Shown piece after piece: positions 198-61,986 of a DNA stretch of 64,000 nt. Each line of letters begins with the position of its first letter. Position 1 is the first letter of the stretch. Source of the stretch: a virus; the IMG/VR virus record IMGVR_UViG_3300045988_148972; one strand, written 5' to 3'. The notes under the pieces were generated by a model that was given only the letters and a program-made list of their open reading frames with translations, was not told the DNA's origin and ran no database searches. Made by a program: the position numbers and the translations under genes.

Positions 198-310
198 ATC
201 AAATGTTTTTGTTTTATTACACTGCAAAGATAGTCGTTTTTTTTCATTTCCGCCATAAATACAGAAATATTTTTATGCAAAAATGTAAATATTCAAATGT
301 ACAAACGCAT

Positions 311-708: not shown

Positions 709-742
709 TTATTATAAATCAGATAATCAATTAGTTTCAAAG

Positions 743-774
743 TTTGCTTATGTGCGGTAAAAACATTATATTTG
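743..774 (+). promoter_or_regulatory. Canonical Bacteroides-type promoter (-33 TTTG, -7 TATATTTG)
   Basis: TTTG at 743-746, a 20-nt spacer, then TATATTTG at 767-774, which matches TAnnTTTG. Confidence 0.55.
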
Positions 775-850
775 CAGAGAATTGAGCATGAAAATGTTCT
801 TTGTTTTATTACACCTGGATGGGGAACAGTGGTTCTTCATCCTTTTTCTT

Positions 851-881
851 TTTGATATTCAGAGAAAATAGGATATATTTG
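851..881 (+). promoter_or_regulatory. Canonical Bacteroides-type promoter (-33 TTTG, -7 TATATTTG)
   Basis: TTTG at 851-854, a 19-nt spacer, then TATATTTG at 874-881. Shares the same TATATTTGCA core as the site at 767. Confidence 0.55.
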
Positions 882-1026
882 CATCATCATGAGAAAAATA
901 GTAACCATGTTATTGCACACGGTGGTGTGAGTTATTTGTTATTATGAATTAATGTGTTAAGATGACATGCTCATTTCCATGTGAATGGATTTGAAAATAC
1001 ATGTTTTTTATAAATAGTTTATTGAT

Positions 1027-1059
1027 CGCGCTTCCCTGTGAAGGGAGGTGCGTTTTTTT
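1027..1059 (+). terminator. Intrinsic terminator
   Basis: CGCGCTTCCCT-GTGA-AGGGAGGTGCG forms an 11-bp stem (2 G-U pairs) and is followed immediately by T7 (1053-1059). Confidence 0.65.
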
Positions 1060-1094
1060 GTCCTTCATTACCATATTAACCTTGTATATCTTTG
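1055..1094 (+). promoter_or_regulatory. Phage late-type promoter cassette TTTTTG-TCCTTCA-N19-TAnnTTTG
   Basis: TTTTTGTCCTTCA at 1055-1067. The -7-like TATCTTTG at 1087-1094 lies exactly 26 nt after the G. ATG is at 1113. Confidence 0.6.
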
Positions 1095-3304: not shown

Positions 3305-3619
3305 CTACGATTTTTCTTCATCTTTGCTTTTGGAATCTTTATTTTCCGGCTGTTTTTCATGGCTCGTGTTCCCTTGAATGGCGTTTAAAAGATTGATAAT
3401 CAATCTGTGTTCAATCCGCTTTATCATCAGGAACTGGGTGTATGTCTTGGCTATCTGTGCAATGATGAAAGAAAGCATCAATATAATAGAGATGAAAAAA
3501 TTGTACAACAAGTCCCTTGTTTCAGTCCCGTTAAAATATGAAAAAACAGAAAAGGCTATTTGAGCACATACGATGATAGGGAAAATAAAGTTGATTGCTT
3601 TTAAGATTTTATCTTTCAT
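3305..3619 (-). CDS. Small membrane protein (2 predicted TM helices), hypothetical
   Basis: ORF track. Has hydrophobic segments FIFPIIVCAQIAFSVF and FFISIILMLSFIIAQI. Last gene of the leftward block. Confidence 0.6.
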   Translation of the reverse strand: MKDKILKAINFIFPIIVCAQIAFSVFSYFNGTETRDLLYNFFISIILMLSFIIAQIAKTYTQFLMIKRIEHRLIINLLNAIQGNTSHEKQPENKDSKSKDEEKS

Positions 3620-3658
3620 AATCTGTTTGTATTTTTATGTATAAATGAATGTATAAAA

Positions 3659-4078
3659 TTACTGTTCTATTTCCACACGCAGATAGGGCATTCCGCCTGG
3701 TAGCATTGGCCATATCTCCGCGTCTGGTGTAAGCATCCGCATCTGTTTCGAAGCGAGTCCAAGCAGGCAAAGCTTTTCTACTTCTGTATGGAATCCTGTC
3801 CATAATTCTCCATCTTTTGCGCAAGCAGCTTGCAGGAAAGAAGCTCCGCCACCTTTATCTTTAAAGAATCCGTCAGGTAATTGCAACAACATTTCTCTGA
3901 TTTCCTGCCGGTGCTTTTCGATACGTTCCGTATGGAATCCTACATTTACATTGGTATTCTGAATAGAACGCACAAAAAAATGAAGTCCTTCTTTCTTACA
4001 TTCTTCGTATTCTTCGTGGCTGCGAAACATGCAGTCGGCGAAAATTCGGTCCACGTTTTCAGTATTCAGTTCGGTCAT
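3659..4078 (-). CDS. Hypothetical protein
   Basis: ORF track. Start overlaps the stop of the upstream gene (4075-4078). Confidence 0.65.
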   Translation of the reverse strand: MTELNTENVDRIFADCMFRSHEEYEECKKEGLHFFVRSIQNTNVNVGFHTERIEKHRQEIREMLLQLPDGFFKDKGGGASFLQAACAKDGELWTGFHTEVEKLCLLGLASKQMRMLTPDAEIWPMLPGGMPYLRVEIEQ

Positions 4079-4827
4079 GGCTCTGTGATTTTAATGTCGT
4101 CAAGGTTATTCAAATAAACAATAATATCTTTAATAACATATACATATTCTACATTGCTTTCACCTCCCAGATAGGTAGCTGTATTTATTTCGTCAATATC
4201 CGAATGAGGGAAAGCGCTTTTGAAAAGTTCTTTCAGCATATTGAAGTTTTTTTCAGAGGCTGTAAGGTGGTGCCCGTAGTTTGTAACAGACGATACATCG
4301 AATCCTTTTTTCTTCAACATTTCCACCTGATTTTTTATTTCCTTTTCGCGACTGGAAGGGAAGATACTCCCTCTCAATGTGGCTGTCATTTTGTACCGGT
4401 CGAAAATAATTTCATCTATATTTCCGGTTCCTTCGTTGTGCCACCATTCATCAAATGATTCAGTGATAAGTTTCAACCTTTCCCTTGCATCCTCGTTCGA
4501 TACCTTCATGCCAAGCTGTTTTCTTAGTTCCCGGTTTTCATGGTTGAGTGAGCGTATCTCCTGGATGTATTCATTGTACTTTTTGTTGATGTCACCTTCA
4601 TATCCGAGGCTGTTCAGAATTTCTATAGAATTTTGTTCAAACAATTCTGCACTTGACTCTTTTGTACCTTCGTTTAGTTCCCCTTTTTGAAGCAAATAAA
4701 GCAATAATGAGAAATTTTTGACCAACGTCTCCATTTTTACACACAACATTCCGTGCAATGTTCCGTCCGGATCAAGAACCGGAGTATTATCATCGTTCTT
4801 TTTAAAGTTGATTTTTCTTTCTTCCAT
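4075..4827 (-). CDS. Hypothetical protein with central coiled-coil-like segment
   Basis: ORF track, 250 aa. No motif recognised. Confidence 0.65.
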   Translation of the reverse strand: MEERKINFKKNDDNTPVLDPDGTLHGMLCVKMETLVKNFSLLLYLLQKGELNEGTKESSAELFEQNSIEILNSLGYEGDINKKYNEYIQEIRSLNHENRELRKQLGMKVSNEDARERLKLITESFDEWWHNEGTGNIDEIIFDRYKMTATLRGSIFPSSREKEIKNQVEMLKKKGFDVSSVTNYGHHLTASEKNFNMLKELFKSAFPHSDIDEINTATYLGGESNVEYVYVIKDIIVYLNNLDDIKITEP

Positions 4828-4839
4828 GGTTTTTTCGTT

Positions 4840-5082
4840 TTATTCGGTATCTAAAATGTCATAGGTCTTATTATCTCCCTGATAGTCATCCAGCGGACAC
4901 CAGTCTGGGATTTCTATTGGTACATCAAGAACTTTGGTTACGTCATTTCGCTTTACCACCTTGTTTATTGGTGAACATAGAATAATATATCCAAAGGTAG
5001 CGTTCTCCAAGTTGTATTTGCGATGGAATACACATTCTTCGCAATGCGAAACAATTGTGCTGATTTTCTTTTTTTCTGCCAT
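4840..5082 (-). CDS. Small Cys-rich protein, paralog of 5089..5391
   Basis: CxxC near the N-terminus plus the shared C-terminal motif IPDWCPLDDY (IPEWCPLDCY in the neighbour). Confidence 0.65.
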   Translation of the reverse strand: MAEKKKISTIVSHCEECVFHRKYNLENATFGYIILCSPINKVVKRNDVTKVLDVPIEIPDWCPLDDYQGDNKTYDILDTE

Positions 5083-5088
5083 AGGTTT

Positions 5089-5391
5089 TTAGTTTCTATA
5101 TCTCACCAAAGGTGCCTCCCATTGTGAATCACGTGGCTTTTCTTCTTTAATCCCGTAAATTTCATTTTCTCCGGTGTAGCAATCCAGCGGGCACCATTCC
5201 GGGATAAAGTTACTCATATTTATCTTATCTGAGTGATAAATATAATCATCAGTAATGATTATTTGTTCTTTTTCTTTGCATACAAGCACTGAACCGGTTG
5301 AGCCTTGAGAAGAGTCGTACCTTTTTGAGTGTGGACACTTCAGGCAGTCGGTAATGACTGCGCTTATTCTGGGTTTAACTTTATTATCCAT
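5089..5391 (-). CDS. Small Cys-rich protein, paralog of 4840..5082
   Basis: CLKCPH near the N-terminus plus IPEWCPLDCY. Confidence 0.65.
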   Translation of the reverse strand: MDNKVKPRISAVITDCLKCPHSKRYDSSQGSTGSVLVCKEKEQIIITDDYIYHSDKINMSNFIPEWCPLDCYTGENEIYGIKEEKPRDSQWEAPLVRYRN

Positions 5392-5402
5392 ATTACTTAT
5401 TT

Positions 5403-6044
5403 TTATTCCGGTAGTGGGTTATCAAATATTTCTTTCAGTTTATTCATTGATTCCTGAATACGTTTTTCAAGGTTTTCCGTGTAGTGGTCATCATTTATCG
5501 GATTGGGGATAAATGTTGTTTCTACTCCGTAACGACCTATGTCAAGAGGGAGAGGGAAAAACGAAACAGTATCTACTGTCGTTCCTGGGATTAAATTGAC
5601 GGTAATGCTCACGCCTTTAACGTCTTTCACCATCGTAAACCAGACGCTATGATTCTTACACGTTGCGAGGTCCTTTATCAGTCCTTTCTCTTCCAGTGGT
5701 TTCAGGTATTTCGTAATGTATAAATCGGTGTTTACTGACTTCCTGTTTAGTTCATCATTAAGGGATTTATTTGCAGCCATCAGTCTTTGATAAATAAACC
5801 TCCGTTCTGGTGATCTGAATGTTTCCTCTGCTGACACATCGGACTTGAAAAATGTGATATGGTCTTCATCCGCCTCTGTTTCGATAATGACTTTCATTGA
5901 GTTTTCTCGTGACGGCTCATTAAGTCTGAACATGATTCGGCATCTGCATGGAATAACCCGCAAGTCTGTGATAATTCCTTTCTCTTCCAGCGGTTTCAGG
6001 TATTCAGACACATATTTTTCTATTGAGTAATCGTTTGCGGTCAT
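5403..6044 (-). CDS. Hypothetical protein made of two tandem copies of one domain
   Basis: YVSEYLKPLEEKGIITDL (N-terminal half) and YITKYLKPLEEKGLIKDL (C-terminal half). A related segment, YIRPLEYVGLVNRV, occurs in 53019..53606. Confidence 0.7.
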   Translation of the reverse strand: MTANDYSIEKYVSEYLKPLEEKGIITDLRVIPCRCRIMFRLNEPSRENSMKVIIETEADEDHITFFKSDVSAEETFRSPERRFIYQRLMAANKSLNDELNRKSVNTDLYITKYLKPLEEKGLIKDLATCKNHSVWFTMVKDVKGVSITVNLIPGTTVDTVSFFPLPLDIGRYGVETTFIPNPINDDHYTENLEKRIQESMNKLKEIFDNPLPE

Positions 6045-6048
6045 AGGG

Positions 6049-6564
6049 CTATTTTTCTTTTATTTCTCTGATTGACTGCATGAAATAAGCATTATCCAGC
6101 ATGTTGAGAAGTCCTCTTTCTTTTTCACTGATATACTTTTGTTTGTTCCACATTTCATATAAGGCATCTTCGGTGAGAAGTCCTGCCGGTAAAATACGTA
6201 TGGTGAAGGATTTCATATCTACATGCTTGATATGGTACTGCCAACATTTGTACTGCATGAAGTTTGCGTATTGGACGGCTATTCCCGGTCGGTCAATCAC
6301 AGATCCGAGGAAAAGCAGGACTGCGTTCTCAATGGTGTAGGTGTGGTTCTCTTTTATCCGGTCGTGAAGGATGGCGACTCCATTCCATTTACCTAGCAAG
6401 GATTCAAAATTTTTGTCTGTTCTGTAATGGGGTTCGTTTATCATACACATAAACAAAGTTTTTCCTTCTTCCGGTGTTAATTCTCTTTTGGGTTTCCGGT
6501 CAAGTTCCTCACACCATTTCTGAATGGCGTCCGGACCGAGATCTTTCTGATGTTTAAATTCCAT
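6049..6564 (-). CDS. Hypothetical protein
   Basis: ORF track, 171 aa. Confidence 0.65.
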   Translation of the reverse strand: MEFKHQKDLGPDAIQKWCEELDRKPKRELTPEEGKTLFMCMINEPHYRTDKNFESLLGKWNGVAILHDRIKENHTYTIENAVLLFLGSVIDRPGIAVQYANFMQYKCWQYHIKHVDMKSFTIRILPAGLLTEDALYEMWNKQKYISEKERGLLNMLDNAYFMQSIREIKEK

Positions 6565-6586
6565 AGCTATATTGTTTAATGGTTTC

Positions 6587-6862
6587 TTACTTTATACGTT
6601 CCGACTGTTCCGCACATGTTACACGGCCAATTTCAAGGTTTCTGCAGCTCATACATGTGGGTACGGTAGGGGAGTAGACACGTCCGCATTTCGGGCAGAT
6701 CCATCCGTATATCGCTGATGCTGGTATATTGTCAGCAGGTTTGTTTTCACTGCGGGCCATTTCAACGGCCTTCATTGCATCGTCCAGAGATACGGTGTAG
6801 TATAATTCACCTCCAATGAATCGGCCCGTTTTCTTTTTGTCAAGGTATTCTTTGGGTGTCAT
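6587..6862 (-). CDS. Zinc-ribbon protein, paralog of 54941..55183
   Basis: GWICPKCGRVYSPTVPTCMSC here against GWVCPVCSRAYAPSVSECTEC in the paralog. Confidence 0.65.
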   Translation of the reverse strand: MTPKEYLDKKKTGRFIGGELYYTVSLDDAMKAVEMARSENKPADNIPASAIYGWICPKCGRVYSPTVPTCMSCRNLEIGRVTCAEQSERIK

Positions 6863-7194
6863 GGTTCAATTATTTGTAGTTCATTACCAACTTTCAGTTT
6901 GGCTAAGAGTGTATTTACGGCTGCTACCTGATTTGACAATTCATTGAGGTAGATCCTAAATATTTCTTTCATCAGCTTGTCATCCACGTTTATATTGACA
7001 GTCTTGGATTTTCCTTTTTTATATCCGAACAATTTTCGTTCTTTGTAGATAATGAACTGATGAAGTTGAATATCTTCCATCTCTTTCATGTTTTGAATGG
7101 CTCCATCGAGCATTTTCAGCCTTCTTGTGGCTTCCACTTCATTACCAAGGATTCCCTCGACTTCATCTATCAGTTTCTTTAGATCTTCCGTCAT
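6859..7194 (-). CDS. Hypothetical protein
   Basis: ORF track. 4-nt start/stop overlaps with both neighbours. Confidence 0.65.
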   Translation of the reverse strand: MTEDLKKLIDEVEGILGNEVEATRRLKMLDGAIQNMKEMEDIQLHQFIIYKERKLFGYKKGKSKTVNINVDDKLMKEIFRIYLNELSNQVAAVNTLLAKLKVGNELQIIEP

Positions 7195-7445
7195 AACTCA
7201 TTCTGTTTATGGTTTGTGGGGTAATCACTCCACTCTCTTATCTCTGCATTGCAGCAGGGGCACAAAACATATAGCAATGTTTTTTCTATTCTTGTAAATG
7301 GGAACTTCCCATCACTTCTGGATAGCACGTCCCTTTTATCGAAAGTAAACTCGCACCCGCAGAACTGACAGGTCGCTATTTTCTTATCGTATTTCCCTTC
7401 TTTGATAATTTCAATCATATTGTTACAGGTTAGACAACACCACAT
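7191..7445 (-). CDS. Small zinc-finger-like protein
   Basis: CLTC, CQFCGC and CPCC pairs in 84 aa. Confidence 0.6.
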   Translation of the reverse strand: MWCCLTCNNMIEIIKEGKYDKKIATCQFCGCEFTFDKRDVLSRSDGKFPFTRIEKTLLYVLCPCCNAEIREWSDYPTNHKQNEL

Positions 7446-7480
7446 ACATGGCTGCCAAAAACAGATAATATAATTTGGTT

Positions 7481-7831
7481 TTACTCATGGCTGATTGCCT
7501 TTACATATTGTTCAAGAATTGATTTCACTTTTCGGATGGACTCTGTTTCCAGGTGGATGACGGGATGTAAATATTCTTCGCATTCATCTTCGTTTGTATA
7601 TAGGATGTACAGCATATCTTCTTTAAATTCCACGCCTTTAAATCTGACTTCAACGCCATCTGCCTGGAAAAATATTTCATCTTCCAGATCCAGTTCGTCG
7701 ACAATCTCATAACTTTCTATTCTGAAACCATCCATGTCGTCGTATTCACAGACGGGAGCGAGGAGCAGATAAATTTCTCCATAAAGCTTGAATCGCTCCA
7801 GCATTTCTTTTTTGGTGATTTCTATTTTCAT
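7481..7831 (-). CDS. Acidic hypothetical protein
   Basis: ORF track, 116 aa, D/E-rich. Confidence 0.6.
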   Translation of the reverse strand: MKIEITKKEMLERFKLYGEIYLLLAPVCEYDDMDGFRIESYEIVDELDLEDEIFFQADGVEVRFKGVEFKEDMLYILYTNEDECEEYLHPVIHLETESIRKVKSILEQYVKAISHE

Positions 7832-7847
7832 GGTTACTTAGTGTTGA

Positions 7848-8498
7848 TTAATATCCGTTTTGACATGCTTCGCAGCAAAATTTCTCACGATCACCTGCAT
7901 CGGAATCATTGATTTCGTATTTACGTCCGCACTGCTGGCAGGTATATTCAATCACGTCCGACTGATAGTATTTGCAGGAATCTTCCGCTTTTACTTCCTT
8001 CCCGAAATTGGTACATTTCCCGTCGTCATAACTGTTGCAAGTTGCGCAGGTGGGGGAGAAGTTCTCGCAGTTGTCTAAATTCACTCTGACTGTCACTTTT
8101 TCTTGATGTAAAGTGAAGTAAGGTTGCTGAAACTCTTTTCCATTTTTAAAGTCGATACAGTAAAATCTAAACATTAAATTGCTAAGGCATATAATGTTAT
8201 AATCAGAGATGACTCGATATATATGGCTCATGTGCCTTTCCCCGTTACCACATTCAATAGCCATGTTGGAATAATCAGGTATTGAATCTGCTACAATACC
8301 CATAAACTCTTTAAATGTGTTTTTTATGACTTCCGGATCATGCTGTATATACTCATTTGATTCTAAGTCACGTCCTAATATTCCGAGTTTTAGATTTATC
8401 GAATTGCATTTATCGCACAGTTCTTCATATTTAATAGCTTCTTCTTTTTTGTCGAATCGGCTACCATCATTTGTTTCGTATATTTCTATTGCTTTCAT
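7848..8498 (-). CDS. Hypothetical protein with Cys-rich C-terminal region
   Basis: The C-terminal 70 aa contain about 11 Cys, including CATC, CQQCG and CCEAC. Confidence 0.65.
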   Translation of the reverse strand: MKAIEIYETNDGSRFDKKEEAIKYEELCDKCNSINLKLGILGRDLESNEYIQHDPEVIKNTFKEFMGIVADSIPDYSNMAIECGNGERHMSHIYRVISDYNIICLSNLMFRFYCIDFKNGKEFQQPYFTLHQEKVTVRVNLDNCENFSPTCATCNSYDDGKCTNFGKEVKAEDSCKYYQSDVIEYTCQQCGRKYEINDSDAGDREKFCCEACQNGY

Positions 8499-8501
8499 AA
8501 A

Positions 8502-8663
8502 CTATTTTGTCTTTAAAAGTTCCGGATTGTCGTGTATATTTCCCACGATTTCACACTGGAATCCCTCTTCGGATGTTTCGGTAAAGGCGTGAAGGGGGAA
8601 TCCTCCATAAATCCATTGATTATGGATTAATCCTTTCCCTCTGAATTTTATTATTGGTTCCAT
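8502..8663 (-). CDS. Miniature YopX-like protein (53 aa)
   Basis: Below the ORF-track cutoff. Hand translation is MEPIIKFRGKGLIHNQWIYGGFPLHAFTETSEEGFQCEIVGNIHDNPELLKTK. The N-terminal KFR and the terminal (I/V)GNIHDNPELL are the YopX-family signature. Confidence 0.55.
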   Translation of the reverse strand: MEPIIKFRGKGLIHNQWIYGGFPLHAFTETSEEGFQCEIVGNIHDNPELLKTK

Positions 8664-8666
8664 AAT

Positions 8667-8981
8667 CTACATAATAATGGTTCCAGAATTATTTTCTATG
8701 TATGTTTGAGTCTTCACGGACCGTAACCATTGATTACGGATTTTCGCCCAATATTCAATATCAATACTGTTGAAAATATGCCTGCGAATTTTTGCAGCTT
8801 TTTTAGCGTATTGCATAATGTCTTCGATAGGCCGGCTCATTCTTCGTTGAATATCAAAACCAATCTCTTCAATTCTATTATAACAATTCACTTTTATGTA
8901 ACATAGTCCGATGCCTTCTACTTCTGCAAAGACAAATATGTCACTTAAAAATAATGGGTTATATATCTCATATATTTTCAT
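8667..8981 (-). CDS. Hypothetical protein
   Basis: ORF 8667..9059 trimmed to the internal ATG (MKIYEIY) at 8981, so it does not overlap 8987..9361. Confidence 0.55.
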   Translation of the reverse strand: MKIYEIYNPLFLSDIFVFAEVEGIGLCYIKVNCYNRIEEIGFDIQRRMSRPIEDIMQYAKKAAKIRRHIFNSIDIEYWAKIRNQWLRSVKTQTYIENNSGTIIM

Positions 8982-8986
8982 ATCAG

Positions 8987-9361
8987 TTATTTTTCTGTAT
9001 TGGGTAGTAAATCTTTTTTGTAAGCCCATTTCACGGCAGGAGAATAATATTCCTCCCAATCATCATCATAATCAACGATTTTCCCATTTCCCAAGAGCAA
9101 TACAACATCATCATGGTTATTTATATTTATATCGAAATCATGCCATACGCTGTTAATCTTACTTTCGTATCCATCCAGGAAACCTTCGCAATATGTCGTA
9201 GAGTCATAAGAGGACGGATTATCTCGGACAAGTTCTGATTTTGATTTGATCAACGGCATAAGTCGTGTGATTTTTTGCATACGTGAGTGTACATTGTTTG
9301 CATGTGAAAGTGCCTTATCCGCATTATCGAGCATGATGTTTATTTTATCTTCTTTTTTCAT
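8987..9361 (-). CDS. Hypothetical protein
   Basis: ORF track, 124 aa. Confidence 0.6.
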   Translation of the reverse strand: MKKEDKINIMLDNADKALSHANNVHSRMQKITRLMPLIKSKSELVRDNPSSYDSTTYCEGFLDGYESKINSVWHDFDININNHDDVVLLLGNGKIVDYDDDWEEYYSPAVKWAYKKDLLPNTEK

Positions 9362-9879
9362 GGTTTGTCTTTTAAGTATTCCGGGTTCAGGTGATTATTA
9401 TGTATAAGCCATTCAATCATGCAAATAACGGCATCGAAGGATTTGTGTCTCATTTCCTGATGTTTTACATCGTATCCAAGTTCCTCGTAAGAAATGAACC
9501 AATATTGCCCGTCGCTATTCATATCAAAATCGGCATTTGGCCTGTGTCTCTGTTTTATTGACTTTGGGATAAGCTCCAGAAGTCGGTCTAGGCTCCATGC
9601 AGGAATGTCTTTCCCCCATAAGAGATCGAAGATTTCCTCTCCGGTCATTAATGTACCGTCCGGATGTTTATGGAAAGGGCTTTCCAGTTTTGCGATTCTT
9701 TCCGGTGTCCAATACTTCCCTCTCAATGTGGGAGGTTTTGTTTGAAGTTCCCATTCCAATGATTTTACCCGGCTGTTAGTATGGTGATACACCATGTCGG
9801 CCGTTTCCGGTTTTAGCCCCAGCGAAAGAAGTATTTCCGACTGGTCGCGTGTAGTTGCTATTTGTGATTTGAAGTCCAT
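9358..9879 (-). CDS. Hypothetical protein
   Basis: ORF track, 173 aa. Confidence 0.65.
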   Translation of the reverse strand: MDFKSQIATTRDQSEILLSLGLKPETADMVYHHTNSRVKSLEWELQTKPPTLRGKYWTPERIAKLESPFHKHPDGTLMTGEEIFDLLWGKDIPAWSLDRLLELIPKSIKQRHRPNADFDMNSDGQYWFISYEELGYDVKHQEMRHKSFDAVICMIEWLIHNNHLNPEYLKDKP

Positions 9880-9882
9880 ATT

Positions 9883-10098
9883 TTATTCCTCCACTTTTAC
9901 AAAGATTACACTAGTTTTATCCCTTCTACTTTCATCGCATTTACCTACAAATGATTCAGCAAAATCGTCACACATCGGAAAATTCTCGTTCCAGAAAAAA
10001 CATCCTATACACGATGTAGGCTTTTTAGATGGTTCAACTTTCAGCTTTACCAGCCCGCACTGGAAAATTTCTCCTATTTTAAATTCCTTCTTCGCCAT
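9883..10098 (-). CDS. Small Cys-containing protein, paralog of 10439..10639
   Basis: Trimmed to MAKKEFKIGEIFQCGLVKLK...DKTSVIFVKVEE. The paralog reads MPKKEFNVGETFQCGLIKLK...DKTNVIFIKVEK. Confidence 0.65.
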   Translation of the reverse strand: MAKKEFKIGEIFQCGLVKLKVEPSKKPTSCIGCFFWNENFPMCDDFAESFVGKCDESRRDKTSVIFVKVEE

Positions 10099-10099
10099 A

Positions 10100-10435
10100 T
10101 TATAACTCCATTGATTTTTGAAGTTCACTAACAAGTGCATCCGCTGATTTGACAGACACTTTAGCAAGTGCTGTAAATGGGAAATCTTCTTTTGTGGTTA
10201 GAAATTGCATTAGCTCAGGACTAGCATGATTCGCTGCCATTATTGCAATTGCAGCCTGTATCCTTACTTGCTGCCAATCTGGATAAACATTTTTGAAATC
10301 CAGTTCGGTATCAAAATACGTATTCCCGTCAGAGCCTTCATATACACTTTTTGCACCAGACTTTGCAGTAGGTTGAGAGTTAAGGTTCAACTTAACTTCA
10401 ACAATTTTCCCGGTATATAAAACTTTTGCTTTCAT
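10100..10435 (-). CDS. Hypothetical protein
   Basis: ORF track, 111 aa. Sits between the two paralogs. Confidence 0.6.
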   Translation of the reverse strand: MKAKVLYTGKIVEVKLNLNSQPTAKSGAKSVYEGSDGNTYFDTELDFKNVYPDWQQVRIQAAIAIMAANHASPELMQFLTTKEDFPFTALAKVSVKSADALVSELQKSMEL

Positions 10436-10438
10436 GTT

Positions 10439-10639
10439 TTATTTCTCCACCTTTATAAAAATTACATTGGTTTTATCTTCTCTGTTTTTTGAACTACAAA
10501 ATCCTACTATGTCAAAATCACATTTATATCTAAAAAAACAATATCTGCATGAACGATTTTCATCCTTGTATTCAATACACTTTAATTTAATCAGTCCGCA
10601 CTGAAATGTTTCTCCGACATTAAATTCTTTCTTCGGCAT
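10439..10639 (-). CDS. Small Cys-containing protein, paralog of 9883..10098
   Basis: See 9883..10098. Confidence 0.65.
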   Translation of the reverse strand: MPKKEFNVGETFQCGLIKLKCIEYKDENRSCRYCFFRYKCDFDIVGFCSSKNREDKTNVIFIKVEK

Positions 10640-10642
10640 ATT

Positions 10643-10897
10643 TCAATCTTCGTCTTTAGGGAACAAGCTCTCAATATCTACACTGGTATAATAGCTTAGA
10701 ATATCTTCAAAGTGATCAATGCAAATGCCTGTTCTTTGCGCCACACAATGAATTTCACGTTCAGAATCCACTCCAAGTATCTTATCAAAAATAGTCGTGC
10801 AATTAGGATATTCTATCCATACCACAAGGCCATGGTCCATTTGCCATTCATATCCATCAATCAGTTCTGTGAGTAATTTTAGTTTCTTGAAATCCAT
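10643..10897 (-). CDS. Hypothetical protein
   Basis: ORF track, 84 aa. Confidence 0.6.
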   Translation of the reverse strand: MDFKKLKLLTELIDGYEWQMDHGLVVWIEYPNCTTIFDKILGVDSEREIHCVAQRTGICIDHFEDILSYYTSVDIESLFPKDED

Positions 10898-10900
10898 ATT

Positions 10901-11254
10901 CTATTTATTTTCATTGTTCTTTATTTCCTCATAAATCATCTTTGCAAGTTCCGGAACAGACTTGTCACACCATCCGTCTGCTATGTCGTCTTTTTCTTTG
11001 TCAAAGTGATTTTCGGAAACATATTCGTTCACCCACGATTGAAAATCATCCTCCGAAATACCATAGTCGGGGTCGTATTCTATGTAAGATGTAAGTGAAT
11101 AGCAGTGTTCGTGAGATTTCCATGGATATACAGTCCCATCATAGACAAGTGTCTGATTTTTGTATTGTTCCCCAGCGTGGATAGTTCCACCGCAATAATC
11201 GCACCGGTGTTCTTTACGGGCGATAGGAGATTTTTCTTGTAATACTTCTGGCAT
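10901..11254 (-). CDS. Hypothetical protein, possible zinc-binding N-terminus
   Basis: HRCDYCGG...H...HEHC pattern. Confidence 0.6.
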   Translation of the reverse strand: MPEVLQEKSPIARKEHRCDYCGGTIHAGEQYKNQTLVYDGTVYPWKSHEHCYSLTSYIEYDPDYGISEDDFQSWVNEYVSENHFDKEKDDIADGWCDKSVPELAKMIYEEIKNNENK

Positions 11255-11255
11255 A

Positions 11256-11432
11256 TTATTCTTCTTTTTTATCGTTTCTGATGGCTTCAGATAATTTGTT
11301 AATTACGAGATAAATGAGCATAAGCTCTATAAACATAATGTCATAATTCTTGTCTGCCAAATAGCATAATACTAAGAGAGCAAATGAACAAGAAACGACA
11401 ATGATCATTGCAATAAAATACTCTTTCATCAT
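11256..11432 (-). CDS. Small membrane protein (58 aa)
   Basis: Below the ORF-track cutoff. Hand translation is MMKEYFIAMIIVVSCSFALLVLCYLADKNYDIMFIELMLIYLVINKLSEAIRNDKKEE. Confidence 0.4.
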   Translation of the reverse strand: MMKEYFIAMIIVVSCSFALLVLCYLADKNYDIMFIELMLIYLVINKLSEAIRNDKKEE

Positions 11433-11511
11433 TAATACCGGAATTTACTGAATTGAATTACTGCCATTGGCTTGCTGAAATCATAACCACGGAACCACTC
11501 TTTCCAGTCTT

Positions 11512-11889
11512 CTACCGCAGGCCATCGTTGGCCGCAAGTTCTTTCAGTTCCGGATATTTACCGTCGATGTCGAAGAAATTGAAAGAGGCACATCCGTCGT
11601 GATCCAGCTGGAAGGTAAGTTTCTGAATACCTGTTCCAGATTCCGCAGTCAGACAGCCTATTGTTATTTGCCTGCTGAAATACGGACGGCCTTCCCACTG
11701 ACGGACGGAGATAACCGCTTCACCTTGCTGCACCTCGTGTATGCGTTTTGCCCAAAGCGGAAAGTTAGACCGGATGGTGTGTCGTTTTTCTCCGGAAAGG
11801 AATTTCTCACGGAATCCGGTAGGGCTCCCAGACCGGGGATGTTTGGCCGGGAAAGATTGCGAAAGCATGAGCACGTAAGTCTTTTTCAT
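11512..11889 (-). CDS. Hypothetical protein, possibly ASCH/PUA-like
   Basis: 125 aa. The GEKRHTIRS motif is reminiscent of ASCH domains. This is a weak call. Confidence 0.55.
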   Translation of the reverse strand: MKKTYVLMLSQSFPAKHPRSGSPTGFREKFLSGEKRHTIRSNFPLWAKRIHEVQQGEAVISVRQWEGRPYFSRQITIGCLTAESGTGIQKLTFQLDHDGCASFNFFDIDGKYPELKELAANDGLR

Positions 11890-12794
11890 AAATCTTCAAT
11901 CTCCTTTTCTAATCGTTTAATTTCCTGGTTAATTTCTTCACGTATCATCTTATCATGCTTATCAAGTAAATCTCTGAGGCTAATAGTAAAGCTTTCAGCG
12001 TATCTTGCAAATAGAATACATTCAGGATTATATATATAGCCTAACGAGTATTTATCCTCAGAAAGTTTCTTCTTTATATTTTCCAGAGTTTTCTTACGAT
12101 TTATCAATAAGCATAGCTTTTCATATTCTTCCTCTGTCATCTTATACCTCCTTTCCCAGATGAAAATACGGTTCATCTCTGGATTGAACGAGCGGGTAAT
12201 CAAACCGTCAAGTTCGATTTCCCTGTGCGGAAGTTTCATAAGTGGATTGTAACGATGTACGTGTTTGTTCCCGACAAGGATAAACCGGCGTACAAAAGAG
12301 AGCATCTTCGTCATGTCTATACCCAGGTCATTACCGCTTTTCGTATCTCCGCGCCATTTATGAGTCACGAAGCATCCAAGTATGGTGTGCGGACGATATT
12401 TCCGTGCGGCAGAAACCGCATCAATCTTTTCCACGTACTTAGGGTATCTGATTGTAGGACAATTAAGCAGCTCATACATTCTATGGGTCTCAAAATCTGC
12501 CGACTGTTGGTAACTGTCGGTGGTACGAATGCTCAGTTCACGTCCGATAATTCCACGTCCGGCTCCTACCTCTATTGCATCATATTCTCCAATTTCCTTG
12601 TCAAGGAAGTCAATAAGTTCTTCAGTAGGAAGCACATAAAGCGCTTCATTGTTCATGAATAAATGAATCTGGTCCAAACTGAACTGAGACCAGAAGTCTT
12701 TACCGAGTATCTGGAACTCTCCATTTCGGTACACATCGTTAAGAATGGGCGTAATGTCCGTGTTCTTTGAAATAGTTCTTACATTCATGTTCAT
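11886..12794 (-). CDS. Class I SAM-dependent methyltransferase-like protein
   Basis: AIEVGAGRGIIG matches SAM-binding motif I (ExGxGxG). Trimmed to MNMNVRT (ATG at 12794). First gene of the leftward block. Substrate unknown. Confidence 0.6.
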   Translation of the reverse strand: MNMNVRTISKNTDITPILNDVYRNGEFQILGKDFWSQFSLDQIHLFMNNEALYVLPTEELIDFLDKEIGEYDAIEVGAGRGIIGRELSIRTTDSYQQSADFETHRMYELLNCPTIRYPKYVEKIDAVSAARKYRPHTILGCFVTHKWRGDTKSGNDLGIDMTKMLSFVRRFILVGNKHVHRYNPLMKLPHREIELDGLITRSFNPEMNRIFIWERRYKMTEEEYEKLCLLINRKKTLENIKKKLSEDKYSLGYIYNPECILFARYAESFTISLRDLLDKHDKMIREEINQEIKRLEKEIEDL

Positions 12795-12817
12795 CGTTTT
12801 ATTACATTTACCTACCG

Positions 12818-12825
12818 CAAAAATA
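12818..12825 (-). promoter_or_regulatory. -7 box (TATTTTTG on the minus strand) for the leftward early operon
   Basis: Matches TAnnTTTG and ends 23 nt upstream of the ATG at 12794. No clear -33 TTTG. Confidence 0.35.
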
Positions 12826-12888
12826 ACAATTTTAAACCGAAATCGCATTAAAATTATCTCTAAAATTCATAAAACCTCCGATATTTCG

Positions 12889-12928
12889 TTTTTGTCCTTC
12901 AAATTACCGAATCAGACCACTAACTTTG
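12889..12928 (+). promoter_or_regulatory. Phage late-type promoter cassette
   Basis: TTTTTGTCCTTCA at 12889-12901, TAACTTTG at 12921-12928, ATG at 12946. Confidence 0.6.
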
Positions 12929-12945
12929 AGGAAAACACAAAGACT

Positions 12946-13971
12946 ATGTTAGTAACGAAAACCGAAGAAATTAGGGCATACGTGCCCACCAGCGTGTACA
13001 GCGGCGGCCAGTCACTTCTCACAATCATGGAAGAGACAGAAGAGAACATTATTGTGCCGATACTTGGGCGAAAACTATACGAAAAGGTATGCGAAGAATA
13101 CGATAAGGCCATGGAGGATTATGGCGGAGTGACGGCGGACTACGTAGACAAAGAAAACCTTACACCCGAAATCCGTCTGATACGTGCCTGTCAGCTTCCG
13201 GTGGTCTATTTGTCGCTGGCCAACAGCACCGGCATTCTCACGGTAAGTCTGAACGACGGGGGTGGACTGAACCAGGTGTACACCGACGGGTACGACAAGG
13301 CCGACGAGAAATCCGTGAGCCGGTTTGAACGCGATGCGTATTTCAAGGGCCGTCGCGGAGTAGATCGTCTGCTGGTATTCCTGGAAGAGGATGCGTGCAG
13401 TCAGGCCCCCGTGTTTGCTGATTTGTGGCGCGAAAGCCGGTATTTCTACCTACAGGGAGATTTGCTGTTTACTACCGCCATCGAGATGAACCGTTTTCTG
13501 GACATCAACGAAAGCCGGGAGAAGTTTATCGCCATGTTGCCTGACATTCGCTATTGCCAAAGTGCATATATCGAGCCGGAGATAGGGGAGGAGCTGACCG
13601 ATGCGCTGGTAAAATGGTGCACGCGCTCGCTAAAGTCCGACCTTTTCACGGGCGAAGACAAGGATGCCATAAATGCGGTTTGGCAGAAGGCTGTGGACTG
13701 TCTGCACATGGCGCTGGCATTGTACATCGAGTCGCGCCGTCCGGAAAAACAGCGCAAGTACAGCGAAAACGAGGCAGCTTATTCCATGATAAAGGCACGC
13801 AAATTTATCTCCAACCATCAGGATTCTTTCGGAGAGTTTATCAAGGATTCTCCGCTGTATGTGCCCCCTCTCACTGAGACTTCCGAATCGGACAAGCAAC
13901 CCATATTCGACTATGACAACCAGGATAACTCCCTCTTTGTGCTTCGTCCGCAAGCCTTCAACCGGCACTGA
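12946..13971 (+). CDS. Hypothetical virion-module protein (341 aa)
   Basis: ORF 12745..13971 trimmed to the ATG at 12946. The upstream extension overlaps the promoter cassette and the divergent gene. Confidence 0.7.
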   Translation: MLVTKTEEIRAYVPTSVYSGGQSLLTIMEETEENIIVPILGRKLYEKVCEEYDKAMEDYGGVTADYVDKENLTPEIRLIRACQLPVVYLSLANSTGILTVSLNDGGGLNQVYTDGYDKADEKSVSRFERDAYFKGRRGVDRLLVFLEEDACSQAPVFADLWRESRYFYLQGDLLFTTAIEMNRFLDINESREKFIAMLPDIRYCQSAYIEPEIGEELTDALVKWCTRSLKSDLFTGEDKDAINAVWQKAVDCLHMALALYIESRRPEKQRKYSENEAAYSMIKARKFISNHQDSFGEFIKDSPLYVPPLTETSESDKQPIFDYDNQDNSLFVLRPQAFNRH

Positions 13972-13972: not shown

Positions 13973-14012
13973 TTTTTGTCCTTCATTCTCAGTTGTCATA
14001 TACCTAACTTTG
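13973..14012 (+). promoter_or_regulatory. Phage late-type promoter cassette
   Basis: TTTTTGTCCTTCA at 13973-13985, TAACTTTG at 14005-14012, ATG at 14030. Confidence 0.6.
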
Positions 14013-21750: not shown

Positions 21751-21790
21751 TTTTTGTCCTTTATATACTATACATGGATAATTAACTTTA
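21751..21790 (+). promoter_or_regulatory. Phage late-type promoter cassette (variant)
   Basis: TTTTTGTCCTTTA at 21751-21763, TAACTTTA at 21783-21790 with the same 26-nt geometry, ATG at 21806. Confidence 0.45.
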
Positions 21791-22914: not shown

Positions 22915-23760
22915 ATGGCTATAGAAGATCAAGATGGTGTAAAAATTAGTGATATGCCCGATTTAAGTTCAATAACGGGTAAAGAATATTTTCCTGTAGT
23001 TGATTCTGCTGGTACAAACAGAAAGGTTGCTACATCATTGCTTGCTACAAAAACCGAACTTGAAGGCAAGGCGGATAAATCCGAAATAGTTGATATGGCA
23101 ACAAAGACTTGGATAGGTCAGCAAGGTTTTTTGACAGAGCATCAAGATATATCTCAGCTAGCTACGAAACAAGAAGTTACACAAGGATTGTCGGGAAAAC
23201 AAGATACACTTCAAAGCGGTACTACTATTAAAACCATTAATGGGCAGTCAATACTCGGTTCGGGTGACTTGGAGATACAGACGGACACGGGAGGTATTTC
23301 GGATGCTCCATCTGACGGAAAGAAGTATGTCCGCAGCAACGGGAACTGGGTAGAAGAAACAACGGTAGACACATCTAATTTCGCAACTAAGACTGAACTT
23401 GAAGGCAAAGTAGATGATTCTGAAATTGCAGATATGCTGACTAAAACAGAGGCAGCTTCTACTTATCAGCCTATAGGAGATTACTTAACTGCTATCCCTG
23501 ATGAATATGTAACAGAAACAGAGTTGAACGGTAAAGGATATGCAACTACTACGCAATTATCCGATGCAGTAGCAGATAAACTAACTAAGACGCAAGCGGA
23601 TGGGTATTATCAGGCTACAGGTGATTATGCGTTAAAATCGGAGATCCCCGATGTAAGCGGTTTTATCACCTCTACTCAGGCAGACGAGAAGTATGCTACA
23701 TTAGAGCAAATTGGAAACATTGATACTATATTGGATGAAATAAATGGGGAGGTGATATAA
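22915..23760 (+). CDS. Tail fibre-like protein with internal repeats
   Basis: Repeated ATKTELEGK(A/V)D(K/D)SEI(V/A)DM segments and a fibre-like N-terminus (SDMPDLSSITGKEYFPVVD). Confidence 0.6.
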   Translation: MAIEDQDGVKISDMPDLSSITGKEYFPVVDSAGTNRKVATSLLATKTELEGKADKSEIVDMATKTWIGQQGFLTEHQDISQLATKQEVTQGLSGKQDTLQSGTTIKTINGQSILGSGDLEIQTDTGGISDAPSDGKKYVRSNGNWVEETTVDTSNFATKTELEGKVDDSEIADMLTKTEAASTYQPIGDYLTAIPDEYVTETELNGKGYATTTQLSDAVADKLTKTQADGYYQATGDYALKSEIPDVSGFITSTQADEKYATLEQIGNIDTILDEINGEVI

Positions 23761-25178: not shown

Positions 25179-25186
25179 TTTATCTC

Positions 25187-25205
25187 AGCCGTGCGGAGCA
25201 CGGCT
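25187..25205 (+). other. GC-rich hairpin just downstream of VR (candidate DGR target-recognition cruciform)
   Basis: AGCCGTGC-GGA-GCACGGCT forms an 8-bp stem starting 10 nt after the VR end. No counterpart follows the TR. Confidence 0.55.
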
Positions 25206-25255
25206 TATCAATTTTTGAATTAAAATATATTAACATTTAATACGCGACAATAGAA

Positions 25256-25609
25256 ATGAACAGATCCGGGAGGAAACATTTGGACGCACCGATTATTCAG
25301 GATGTGATACGCCTGAATAATTGTCTCATAGAAATCAACAGCAAAGCTTATAAGGTCATAAGCAGAACATATATAGACCCTATGCTGAAGCAAGGCGCAC
25401 TGCTTTTCAGCTACGCTATGCGCCAGGTCCGTGGAATGGACTATTATAAAAGAGCTACAGAGCTGACATACGAATTGCAGTTCGGAATATATCTGATAGT
25501 GGCTCTTGGAGGATGCAGCAAAGAGAAAGCGTCTGTAATAGACGTTTTGTGCGATAATATTTTATCTTCGCTTGCGAGGATAAAGAATGTCAGATCCGAA
25601 AAGTCTTGA
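25256..25609 (+). CDS. avd: Accessory variability determinant (Avd)-like protein
   Basis: 117 aa, predicted helical. Lies between the target gene and TR/RT, the canonical Avd position. The call rests mainly on position and size. Confidence 0.6.
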   Translation: MNRSGRKHLDAPIIQDVIRLNNCLIEINSKAYKVISRTYIDPMLKQGALLFSYAMRQVRGMDYYKRATELTYELQFGIYLIVALGGCSKEKASVIDVLCDNILSSLARIKNVRSEKS

Positions 25610-25612
25610 ACT

Positions 25613-27085: not shown

Positions 27086-27122
27086 CGGACAACTGATAGC
27101 AACATTTAAAACCATAAACAAC

Positions 27123-27830: not shown

Positions 27831-27837
27831 TAGAATT

Positions 27838-28341: not shown

Positions 28342-28381
28342 TTTTTGTCCTTCACTCTTCTATATTCTCTTTATAACTTTG
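28342..28381 (+). promoter_or_regulatory. Phage late-type promoter cassette
   Basis: TTTTTGTCCTTCA at 28342-28354, TAACTTTG at 28374-28381, ATG at 28425. A degenerate TTTTTGTCCTCCT half-copy sits at 28316-28328. Confidence 0.6.
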
Positions 28382-28424
28382 TATTGCAACAAAAACCAAA
28401 TGTTTAACTAAAAACGACGACAAA

Positions 28425-34841: not shown

Positions 34842-34881
34842 TTTTTGTCCTTCATTTCCAGATTCCTGCTGCCTAACTTTG
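34842..34881 (+). promoter_or_regulatory. Phage late-type promoter cassette
   Basis: TTTTTGTCCTTCA at 34842-34854, TAACTTTG at 34874-34881, ATG at 34902. The leader is near-identical to the one at 12921-12945. Confidence 0.6.
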
Positions 34882-47704: not shown

Positions 47705-47715
47705 AATTCCCTGAA

Positions 47716-51015: not shown

Positions 51016-51036
51016 TAACCTTAAAAAGAAAAGAAT

Positions 51037-61944: not shown

Positions 61945-61986
61945 TTTTTGTGTCCTTCATTACCGCATTTCGCGTGCGTAATTTCG
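61945..61986 (+). promoter_or_regulatory. Phage late-type promoter cassette (variant with TG insertion)
   Basis: TTTTTG-TG-TCCTTCA at 61945-61959. TAATTTCG at 61979-61986 lies exactly 26 nt after the start of TCCTTCA. ATG at 62016. Confidence 0.5.

What the first reader, a model, noticed from the sequence alone, without database searches (positions are those of the whole stretch)
12889..12948. Fixed-geometry promoter cassette TTTTTG-TCCTTCA-N19-TAnnTTTG precedes the virion and lysis operons (7 copies)
The cassette occurs at 1055, 12889, 13973, 21751, 28342, 34842 and 61945 (the last has a TG insertion). All copies are on the plus strand, 15-43 nt upstream of the first ATG of the portal, virion, lysis, tape-measure and protease operons. 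The distance from the first T of TCCTTCA to the -7-like box is exactly 26 nt in all seven. That puts the upstream TTTG 26 nt from the -7 box, not the 19-20 nt seen at the two canonical promoters in this window (743-774, 851-881). A normal -33 contact is therefore out of register. This suggests a dedicated late regulon that needs a phage activator or alternative sigma factor. Sites 12889 and 34842 also share a near-identical leader (CTAACTTTGAGGAAAACA..ACAAAGAC). Degenerate TTTTGTCCTCCT half-copies sit at 28316 and 61146.
Basis: seen in the sequence. Interest (0 to 1): 0.65.

Follow-up and report, generated by a model that had tools for sequence, protein, structure and literature searches.

The report
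Conserved late-gene promoter cassette of gut phage
A 40-base signal, TTTTTGTCCTTCA-19 bases-TAACTTTG, sits in front of every virion and lysis gene block of an uncultured ~100-kb human-gut Bacteroidota phage and its relatives. It is most likely a late promoter that keeps the host's -7 box but replaces the usual -33 contact with a phage-specific box.

Summary
Seven copies of TTTTTGTCCTTCA-N19-TAAyTTyG lie in the window. All are on the + strand and intergenic, 15-43 nt before the first ATG of the portal, tail, DGR/fibre, lysis, tape-measure and protease gene blocks.

The sites score 46-71 bits against 7.6 for the next-best site. The exact core pattern occurs 5 times against 0 expected. The cassette is kept in more than 50 related 50-120 kb gut phage contigs, including relatives with only 36-50% protein identity. 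The two boxes and the 19-nt spacing stay fixed while the spacer and flanks diverge. It is not found in bacterial chromosomes.

The 3' box is the Bacteroidota sigma-A -7 element. The canonical -33 position holds TTCA, not TTTG.

Best reading: a late promoter class that needs a phage-encoded factor acting at the sigma region-4 position. This is inferred, not shown.

Its recognition helix does not co-vary with the box, so it is a weak candidate. No sigma-70-family protein was found in about 100 kb of genome.

The "half copies" are other things: a terminator U-tract and a separate TTTGTC tandem repeat.

This is a new variant of a known kind, of moderate interest.

The parts
1055..1094 (+). Cassette 1: TTTTTGTCCTTCA-N19-TATCTTTG. 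ATG at 1113 (87-aa gene, then the portal-like gene 1381-3114).
   Evidence: A strong hairpin at 1027-1052 lies directly upstream.
12889..12928 (+). Cassette 2 (the finding): TTTTTGTCCTTCA-N19-TAACTTTG. ATG at 12946 (341-aa gene). It lies in a divergent intergenic region.
   Evidence: Alignments of divergent relatives begin exactly here.
13973..14012 (+). Cassette 3: TTTTTGTCCTTCA-N19-TAACTTTG. ATG at 14030 (330-aa gene, then the 1905-aa tail/structural protein).
   Evidence: The boxes are invariant in 46 relatives chosen by protein homology.
21751..21790 (+). Cassette 4, a variant: TTTTTGTCCTTTA-N19-TAACTTTA. ATG at 21806 (94-aa gene, fibre-like genes, reverse-transcriptase block).
28342..28381 (+). 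Cassette 5: TTTTTGTCCTTCA-N19-TAACTTTG. Its leader holds a 3-codon mini-ORF, followed by the holin gene at 28425 and the lysis block.
34842..34881 (+). Cassette 6: TTTTTGTCCTTCA-N19-TAACTTTG. ATG at 34902 (2274-aa tape-measure protein). It lies in a divergent intergenic region.
61947..61986 (+). Cassette 7, a variant: TTTGTGTCCTTCA-N19-TAATTTCG. ATG at 62016 (head maturation protease).
   Evidence: The same variant is kept in all 45 relatives examined and in the distant relative L224.

Best explanation
**What it is.** The cassette is the promoter of the late (virion, lysis) transcription units of a clade of about 100-kb uncultured gut Bacteroidota phages.

**How it probably works.**
- The 3' box, TAACTTTG, is the -7 element read by region 2 of the host primary sigma factor (sigma-ABfr). 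The start site would fall a few bases downstream and give very short A-rich leaders.
- The 5' box, TTTTTGTCCTTCA, spans about -43 to -31. It covers the place where sigma region 4 would normally meet a -33 TTTG, plus about 8 bp upstream.
- The canonical -33 signal is missing, the box is phage-specific, and the spacing to the -7 box is rigid. So a phage-encoded protein probably reads the box and either replaces or re-targets the sigma region-4 contact. T4 MotA/AsiA at middle promoters and P1 Lpa at late promoters work this way. This would switch on all late operons together.

**Shown:** the motif, its geometry, its strand and position, its deep conservation, and its restriction to this phage clade.

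**Inferred:** promoter activity, late timing, and dependence on a phage factor. The factor is not identified.
For: - Seven copies against 0 expected, all sense-strand and intergenic, each before the first gene of a structural or lysis block.
- An eighth copy lies just beyond the window, before a 400-aa gene in the head region (L174:14174).
- The cassette k-mers are the most enriched words in upstream regions. No other shared upstream motif was found.
- The 3' box matches the published sigma-ABfr -7 consensus TAnnTTTG (PMC7366714).
- Only three sites in the window have the canonical TTTG-N19-21-TAnnTTTG, and none is a cassette.
- In 46 relatives chosen by protein homology, both boxes are invariant while the spacer changes. 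In three of them the upstream gene is different.
- Relatives with 36-50% protein identity keep GTCCTTC(A/G)-N19-nA(A/T)yTTyG.
- Spacing is 19 nt in 286 of 286 instances and in 39 independent sequence contexts.
- An exact scan of 185,579 species genomes gave 9 hits. At least three are mis-binned relatives of this phage (protein homology), and a fourth lies in the same MAG and carries a divergent cassette pair. The rest are at chance level. So this is not a host regulon motif.
- Control: the cultured B. fragilis phage B124-14 has its own five-member repeated promoter family, which uses the canonical TTG-N19/20-TAnnTTTG.
Against: - There are no transcript data, so start sites and timing are unknown.
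- A perfect -7 box may be enough for host RNA polymerase. The -33 element is weak or undetectable in some Bacteroidota (PMC7366714).
- A repeated phage promoter of a Bacteroides phage is reported to be strongly constitutive in uninfected cells (10.1101/2025.03.18.644028).
- No reader of the box was identified. The only sigma-4-like protein does not co-vary with the box.
- The box is constant across very divergent phages. That would also fit a conserved host reader.
Confidence: 0.55

Rival explanations
1. It is a strong promoter used by host sigma-A RNA polymerase alone. The -7 box does the work. The T-run and GTCCTTCA act as an UP-like or non-canonical -33 element tuned for high expression, and no phage factor is needed.
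For: - The -7 box is perfect or nearly so.
- The -33 element is weakly conserved in Bacteroidota (PMC7366714).
- A Bacteroides phage promoter is used as a strong constitutive part in uninfected cells.
- No phage sigma factor was found.
Against: - A specific 9-13-bp box with zero spacing variation is far more constrained than host promoters. Their -33/-7 spacing is variable (PMC7366714).
- The box is absent from bacterial chromosomes.
- The host-type promoters in this window and the B124-14 promoter family use TTTG or TTG at N19-20 instead.
- A phage with a plasmid-like ParA/iteron module needs its late genes to be switchable.
Confidence: 0.2
2. It is the promoter for a phage-encoded sigma-like factor. 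One protein would read both boxes, with a region 2 that keeps the host -7 specificity and a region 4 that reads GTCCTTCA.
For: An invariant 19-nt spacing with no +/-1 variants fits one rigid bipartite reader. Both boxes are more constrained than the host consensus: the 'nn' of TAnnTTTG is almost always AC.
Against: No Sigma70_r2 hit was found among 103 + 31 proteins covering about 100 kb of this genome and its close relatives. The only Sigma70_r4-like protein has no region 2 by Pfam, by PDB sequence search or by fold search. A divergent, unrecognisable sigma, like T4 gp55, cannot be excluded. About 9 kb of the 111.6-kb contig was not examined.
Confidence: 0.12
3. The 5' box is an operator for a phage repressor. 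The repressor would keep all late promoters shut in a plasmid-like carrier state by covering the -33 region.
For: The phage carries ParA, an iteron-like repeat array, a DnaA_N protein and Cro/CI-type HTH proteins. The box is asymmetric and scattered through the genome, as P1 C1 operators are (from my own knowledge).
Against: A repressor does not need exact 19-nt phasing with the -7 box. The promoters would then lack any -33 element when derepressed. Direct repression of each late operon is unusual.
Confidence: 0.08
4. It is not a promoter. It is a terminator tail, an RNA processing site, or a recombination/module-junction sequence.
For: - A strong hairpin directly precedes the copy at 1055.
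- A conserved terminator-like hairpin lies about 25-50 nt upstream of the copy at 28342.
- Homology between relatives often breaks exactly at the cassette.
Against: - Five of the seven copies have no upstream hairpin (z-scores near 0).
- Two copies lie in divergent intergenic regions that no + strand read-through transcript reaches.
- The second box matches the -7 consensus and sits at a fixed distance.
- Breakpoints at the cassette are expected for any conserved intergenic sequence, so they are best seen as a by-product.
Confidence: 0.05

Closest known systems
T4 middle promoters (MotA box plus sigma-70 -10, with the MotA/AsiA 'sigma appropriation' mechanism). Named from my own knowledge; not tested here.
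   Same: The host -10-type element is kept. The -35-type element is replaced by a roughly 9-bp phage-specific box at a set distance. Many copies head one temporal class of genes.
   Different: - The host phylum and the sigma element differ (-7 TAnnTTTG here).
- The box is centred near -37, not -30.
- The spacing here shows no variation.
- No MotA or AsiA homologue was found.
- The genes served are late, not middle.
P1 late promoters activated by Lpa (with host SspA). From my own knowledge.
   Same: A phage with a plasmid-type partition module. Its late promoters have a host -10 and a conserved phage-specific element in place of the -35.
   Different: The P1 element is a 9-bp inverted repeat near -22. 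The box here is asymmetric and lies further upstream. No Lpa homologue was identified.
Middle/late promoter motif of crAss-like phages (phi14:2; Drobysheva et al., bioRxiv 10.1101/2020.03.07.982082).
   Same: Bacteroidota phages with an extended conserved motif before middle and late genes. It includes -35-like and -10-like blocks and is transcribed by host RNA polymerase.
   Different: - This phage is not crAss-like. It has a tape-measure protein and no virion RNA polymerase hit.
- The crAss motif keeps a -35-like block and worked with E. coli sigma-70 holoenzyme.
- The crAss motif logos are in figures, so the sequences could not be compared.
Canonical Bacteroidota sigma-ABfr promoter (-33 TTTG / -7 TAnnTTTG). 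Examples: window 743 and 851, and the five-member repeated promoter family of B. fragilis phage B124-14.
   Same: The same -7 element and A-rich short leaders. In B124-14 it is also a repeated phage promoter family.
   Different: The cassette has TTCA where TTTG or TTG should be, with TTTG displaced 7 bp upstream. It also has a 13-nt invariant box and an invariant spacer length.

Membership tests
Bacteroidota sigma-ABfr promoter | -7 element TAnnTTTG | tested here: met
   Exact in 5 of 7 copies. The other two have one mismatch each: TAACTTTA at 21783 and TAATTTCG at 61979.
Bacteroidota sigma-ABfr promoter | -33 element TTTG about 19-21 nt upstream of the -7 box | tested here: not met
   That position is TTCA in every copy. 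TTTG lies 26 nt upstream. Only 743, 851 and 57285 fit the canonical pattern.
Bacteroidota sigma-ABfr promoter | Transcription start a few bases downstream of the -7 box | not testable with these tools
   No transcript data are available.
Activator-dependent phage promoter (T4 MotA-box / P1 Lpa type) | Host -10-type element kept, and -35-type element replaced by a conserved phage-specific box at a fixed distance | tested here: met
   The 13-nt box and N19 spacing are invariant over 286 instances and 39 contexts. The box is absent from host genomes.
Activator-dependent phage promoter (T4 MotA-box / P1 Lpa type) | Heads the genes of one temporal class | tested here: inconclusive
   All copies precede structural or lysis genes, judged by annotation. 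Timing was not measured.
Activator-dependent phage promoter (T4 MotA-box / P1 Lpa type) | Activity depends on a phage-encoded box-binding protein | not testable with these tools
   No reader was identified. The LuxR-type candidate shows no co-variation with the box.
Promoter of a phage-encoded sigma-70-family factor | The phage encodes a protein with sigma regions 2 and 4 | tested here: not met
   Pfam scans of 103 + 31 proteins gave no Sigma70_r2 hit. ORF 46782-47414 has only a LuxR/sigma-r4-like HTH. About 9 kb was not examined.
LuxR/GerE-family activator site (for ORF 46782-47414) | Dyad-symmetric site, and a recognition helix that tracks the site among relatives | tested here: not met
   The box is asymmetric. 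Helix 178-192 differs completely in P0063, P0057 and P0050, whose phages keep the box.
Intrinsic terminator | G+C-rich hairpin directly followed by the T-run | tested here: not met
   This holds only at 1055. A hairpin lies about 25-50 nt upstream of 28342. The other five copies have none.

The most novel reading that the evidence does not exclude
These phages encode an unrecognised small protein. It could be one of the many orphan early or middle gene products, or the Cys-rich LuxR-type protein acting through its conserved N-terminal domain. The protein would re-target region 4 of the unusual Bacteroidota primary sigma factor to GTCCTTCA at a rigid 19-bp distance. That would be a sigma-appropriation-like switch in a phylum where none is known, and it would yield an orthogonal, infection-specific promoter and activator pair for Bacteroides.
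Probability: 0.2. Interest if true: 0.7.

Novelty: new variant of a known kind. Interest (0 to 1): 0.45.

Why it matters
Transcription control in gut Bacteroidota phages is almost unstudied outside the crAss-like group. This cassette defines the complete late regulon of a widespread clade of about 100-kb human-gut phages, in more than 50 contigs, from sequence alone. It marks operon starts for annotation. It also poses a sharp, testable question: what reads GTCCTTCA at a fixed 19 bp from a host -7 box? If a phage factor is needed, the pair would be a ready-made orthogonal expression switch for Bacteroides engineering and a first example of sigma-ABfr re-targeting. If host polymerase suffices, it is a new strong promoter architecture. 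Either way, it is a variation on the familiar theme of phage late-promoter consensus sequences.

Tried and rejected
1. **Terminator-tail reading of the T-run.** Only 1055 has an adjacent hairpin.
2. **Host regulon.** An exact scan of species genomes gave only chance hits and mis-binned phage contigs.
3. **ORF 46782-47414 as a sigma factor.** Structure prediction (pLDDT 83), fold search and PDB profile search show only a C-terminal LuxR/GerE HTH.
4. **Co-variation of that protein's recognition helix with the box.** None was found.
5. **Link between the TTTGTC tandem repeat at 61146-61169 and that HTH.** The repeat's variable 3' parts do not track the HTH. The same HTH occurs with different repeat variants.
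6. **Search for any sigma or RNA polymerase gene.** Pfam was run on 134 proteins from the window, both flanks of the source contig, and relatives' further flanks. None was found.
7. **PHROGs on ten small neighbouring proteins.** This gave no regulators.
8. **Nearest cultured phage.** There was no megablast hit, and only remote portal similarity.
9. **Literature.** There was no hit for the motif or for late promoters of Bacteroides phages.
10. **Rfam and tRNA scans of the window.** Both were empty.
11. **Minus-strand exact boxes at 29263 and 33439.** They are intragenic with no -7 partner, and were discarded as chance.

Full report
**1.

The pattern TCCTTCA-N19-TAnnTTTG occurs five times in the 64-kb window, always on the + strand. 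None was expected in 100 dinucleotide-preserving shuffles.

Allowing mismatches in the 13-mer TTTTTGTCCTTCA recovers two more copies in the same register. Site 21751 reads TTTTTGTCCTTTA-N19-TAACTTTA. Site 61947 reads TTTGTGTCCTTCA-N19-TAATTTCG.

A weight matrix built from the seven sites scores them 46-71 bits. The best other position on either strand scores 7.6 bits. The matrix is circular, but the gap shows there are exactly seven copies.

All seven are intergenic. The first ATG follows 55-60 nt after the motif start at five sites. At the holin gene the leader contains a three-codon mini-ORF. At the protease gene the ATG lies 29 nt after the box.

Cassette words are the most enriched 7-mers in upstream regions. 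No second shared upstream motif was found.

Together with 57285, they are the only exact canonical matches in the window.

**2. What the window is**

The sequence is part of a 111,579-bp human-gut metagenome contig, ENA ERZ919609 k127_65851. It is a tailed phage with no close cultured relative.

The genes that follow the cassettes are:
- an 87-aa gene and the portal-like gene (1381-3114);
- a 341-aa gene;
- a 330-aa gene and a 1905-aa tail/structural protein;
- a 94-aa gene followed by fibre-like genes and a reverse transcriptase;
- the holin and lysis block;
- the 2274-aa tape-measure protein;
- the head maturation protease.

An eighth copy, TTTATGTCCTTCA-N19-TACTTTTG, lies just beyond the window end, before a 400-aa gene in the head region (L174:14174). 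Relatives carry a ninth, weaker copy further on.

The minus-strand block 3305-12848 and the + strand block 46405-61100 (primase and many small ORFs) carry no cassette.

**3. Conservation**

Nearly all align to the window at 65-96% nucleotide identity.
- To avoid selecting on the motif, I collected 46 relatives through the protein encoded at 14030. In every one, TTTTTTGTCCTTCAT and TAACTTTGG are invariant while the 19-nt spacer varies. In three of them the upstream gene is different, and the homology break falls exactly at the T-run.
- More distant phages still carry the cassette. In L110 the tail protein is 35-40% identical. In L224 and L225 the primase is 42-43% and the protease 36% identical. 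L274 is also distant. All carry GTCCTTC(A/G) or GTCCTTTA, 19 nt, then (T/G)A(A/T)yTTyG before structural genes.
- The protease-site variant, with TGTG and TAATTTCG, is conserved as a variant in all 45 relatives examined and in L224. This suggests tuned strength rather than decay.
- Spacing is 19 nt in 286 of 286 instances. In 39 independent sequence contexts, only the two boxes, the TT after the first box, and an A-rich leader carry information.
- In L110 and L118 two cassettes sit back to back and point outward. So orientation follows the downstream gene, not the genome.

**4. Not a host motif**

A scan of one genome for each of 185,579 bacterial and archaeal species, using 19 specified bases, gave nine hits.

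At least three are short contigs with protein homology to this phage, mis-binned into Bacteroidaceae, Fibrobacter and Ruminococcus MAGs. A fourth lies in the same Bacteroidaceae MAG and carries a divergent cassette pair. The other five lie in unrelated phyla. About four chance hits are expected for 19 bases in 596 Gb.

No Bacteroidales chromosome carries the cassette.

**5. Anatomy relative to the host promoter**

The published consensus for the Bacteroidota primary sigma factor is TAnnTTTG at -7 and TTTG near -33, with variable spacing (PMC7366714).

The 3' box fits the -7 element. If it spans about -11 to -4, the 19-nt spacer covers -30 to -12. Then TCCTTCA covers -37 to -31 and TTTTTG covers -43 to -38.

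But the canonical -33 slot is not empty. It holds the invariant TTCA. The box therefore covers the sigma region-4 position and the adjacent upstream 8 bp.

As a control, the cultured B. fragilis phage B124-14 has its own five-member repeated promoter family. That family uses TTG-N19/20-TAnnTTTG, the canonical geometry.

**6. Rival readings of the 5' box**

- *Terminator tail.* Only 1055 has an adjacent strong hairpin (-20 kcal/mol, z = -5). Five sites have none.
- *RNA processing site.* Two copies lie in divergent intergenic regions that no + strand read-through transcript reaches.
- *Recombination junction.* Homology breaks at cassettes are frequent. They are expected at any conserved intergenic island, so I treat them as a by-product. 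They resemble the mobile regulatory cassettes described in T4-type phages (my own knowledge).

**7. Who reads the box?**

It belongs to a clade-restricted family of about 205-aa proteins (69 hits at 45-92% identity). Its features are:
- an N-terminal domain that matches nothing in the PDB or Pfam;
- five invariant or nearly invariant cysteines;
- a C-terminal four-helix LuxR/GerE/NarL-type HTH.

It has no sigma region 2.

In its favour, LuxR-family activators typically bind around -40, overlapping the -35 (my own knowledge). The gene also heads the primase module in conserved synteny, as expected for a gene expressed before the late genes.

Against it, the predicted recognition helix changes completely in distant homologues while the box does not:
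- close clade (residues 178-192): SYSNIDNMRKRIF;
- P0063: CKRTTEKLGSEVF;
- P0057: SYHRARDIASEIY;
- P0050: SRKTVDNIRGQIF.

The phages of these three distant homologues keep the same box. The box also has no dyad symmetry.

Pfam scans of 103 proteins from the window and both flanks of the source contig, and of 31 more from relatives' further flanks, found no Sigma70_r2 protein. Together these cover about 100 kb. The DNA binders found were this GerE protein, Cro/CI-type and winged-helix HTH proteins, and an HU-HIG/HU-like protein.

**8. Mechanism: commitment and its limits**

I judge it about 85% likely that the cassette is the promoter of the late operons. I judge it about 55% likely that it needs a phage-encoded factor acting at the sigma region-4 position. 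That would be activator-type or sigma-appropriation-type.

The arguments for a factor are:
- the missing -33 element;
- the phage-specific 9-13-bp box;
- the complete lack of spacing variation, which implies a stereospecific contact with RNA polymerase;
- the need for a phage with a plasmid-like module to keep late genes off.

The main rival, at about 20%, is host holoenzyme alone. The -7 box is perfect, the -33 element is dispensable in some Bacteroidota, a Bacteroides phage promoter is known to be strongly constitutive, and the deep constancy of the box would fit a conserved host reader.

A cryptic phage sigma (about 12%) and a repressor operator (about 8%) remain possible.

**9. The 'half copies'**

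Site 28317 is the T-run that follows a hairpin. That hairpin is conserved in relatives as a clean terminator stem, GAAAGGAGACA/TGTCTCCTTTC.

Sites 61146/61157 form a tandem direct repeat, TTTGTC-N6-TTTGTC, before the 146-aa gene at 61201, with no -7 box. In relatives both repeat units keep TTTGTC, while their 3' parts change in concert (CCTCC, AGTAA, CCCCC, CGCCG). These changes do not track the LuxR-type HTH. Its meaning is open.

**10. Novelty**

Text searches found no description of this motif or of late promoters of non-crAss Bacteroides phages.

The closest described case in the phylum is the extended middle/late promoter motif of crAss-like phages, which is transcribed by host polymerase (10.1101/2020.03.07.982082). 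The closest mechanistic analogues are T4 MotA-box promoters and P1 Lpa-dependent late promoters (my own knowledge).

The cassette is thus a new variant of a familiar kind. It is of moderate interest, mainly because it is so sharply defined and because its reader is unknown.

Noticed in passing
window 1-740; L176:3686-8817: A ParA-type ATPase gene runs off the window start. Next to it, 230-740 is an AT-rich array of many ATAAAAGTAT-like short repeats that look like iterons or parS sites. Further upstream in the source contig lie a DnaA_N-domain protein and a Cro/CI-type HTH protein. The phage may be maintained as a plasmid. No integrated copy was seen in 185,579 species genomes.
   Followed up: partly
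window 743-1052: Two canonical host-type promoters (743-774, 851-881) are each followed by a hairpin terminator (817-842, 1027-1052). The predicted products are a roughly 65-nt and a roughly 165-nt transcript with only tiny ORFs. These could be small RNAs or micro-peptides, just upstream of the portal cassette.
   Followed up: no
window 22915-27837: A reverse transcriptase gene (25613-27085, phrog_1423 E = 2e-50, RVT_1) lies after fibre-like genes and before a stretch (27086-27837) whose only ORF is a doubtful one (26997-27830). This is probably a diversity-generating retroelement inside the late operon started by cassette 4.
   Followed up: no
window 61146-61169: A tandem direct repeat TTTGTC-N6-TTTGTC lies before the 146-aa gene at 61201. 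Relatives keep both TTTGTC units, but the 3' parts change in concert (CCTCC, AGTAA, CCCCC, CGCCG). This looks like a binding site whose specificity drifts. It has no -7 box and no link to the LuxR-type HTH.
   Followed up: partly
window 59399-60447: A 1049-nt stretch has no ORF of 60 aa or more, no tRNA and no Rfam hit. The distant relative L224 has a similar gap of about 800 nt in the equivalent place.
   Followed up: no
window 46782-47414: This is a clade-restricted family of about 205-aa proteins. They have an N-terminal domain with no match in the PDB or Pfam, five invariant or nearly invariant cysteines (C94, C118, C124, C141, C147; possibly a metal site) and a LuxR/GerE HTH. The recognition helix is hypervariable among distant members, while the N-terminal part is conserved.
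   Followed up: partly
window 28400-28411: A three-codon mini-ORF, ATGTTTAACTAA, sits in the leader between cassette 5 and the holin gene. It is conserved in relatives, including divergent ones.
   Followed up: no
window 12784, 12889, 28214, 32844, 36581; L130, L147, L153: Alignments of relatives to the window repeatedly start or stop at the same coordinates, several of them at cassettes. In three relatives the gene upstream of cassette 3 is replaced, with the break at the T-run. The cassettes coincide with mosaic module junctions.
   Followed up: partly
L110:~10070-10110; L118:6120-6230: In distant relatives two cassettes sit back to back, with their T-runs about 8-30 nt apart, and drive divergent gene blocks.
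   Followed up: no
L122, L124, L126: Short contigs with protein homology to this phage are binned into MAGs labelled Fibrobacter, Bacteroidaceae and Ruminococcus. L118, from the same Bacteroidaceae MAG as L124, carries the cassettes and is probably another one. This is likely mis-binning, so these labels are not host evidence.
   Followed up: partly
L174:16360-17760; L176:1-725; L277/L293: The rest of the genome and its relatives encode a Tad2-like anti-Thoeris protein, N6/N4 and C5 DNA methylases, an HU-HIG/HU-like DNA-binding protein, KilA-N/ANT antirepressor domains and a radical-SAM protein. L224 carries an IS605 OrfB/TnpB gene.
   Followed up: no
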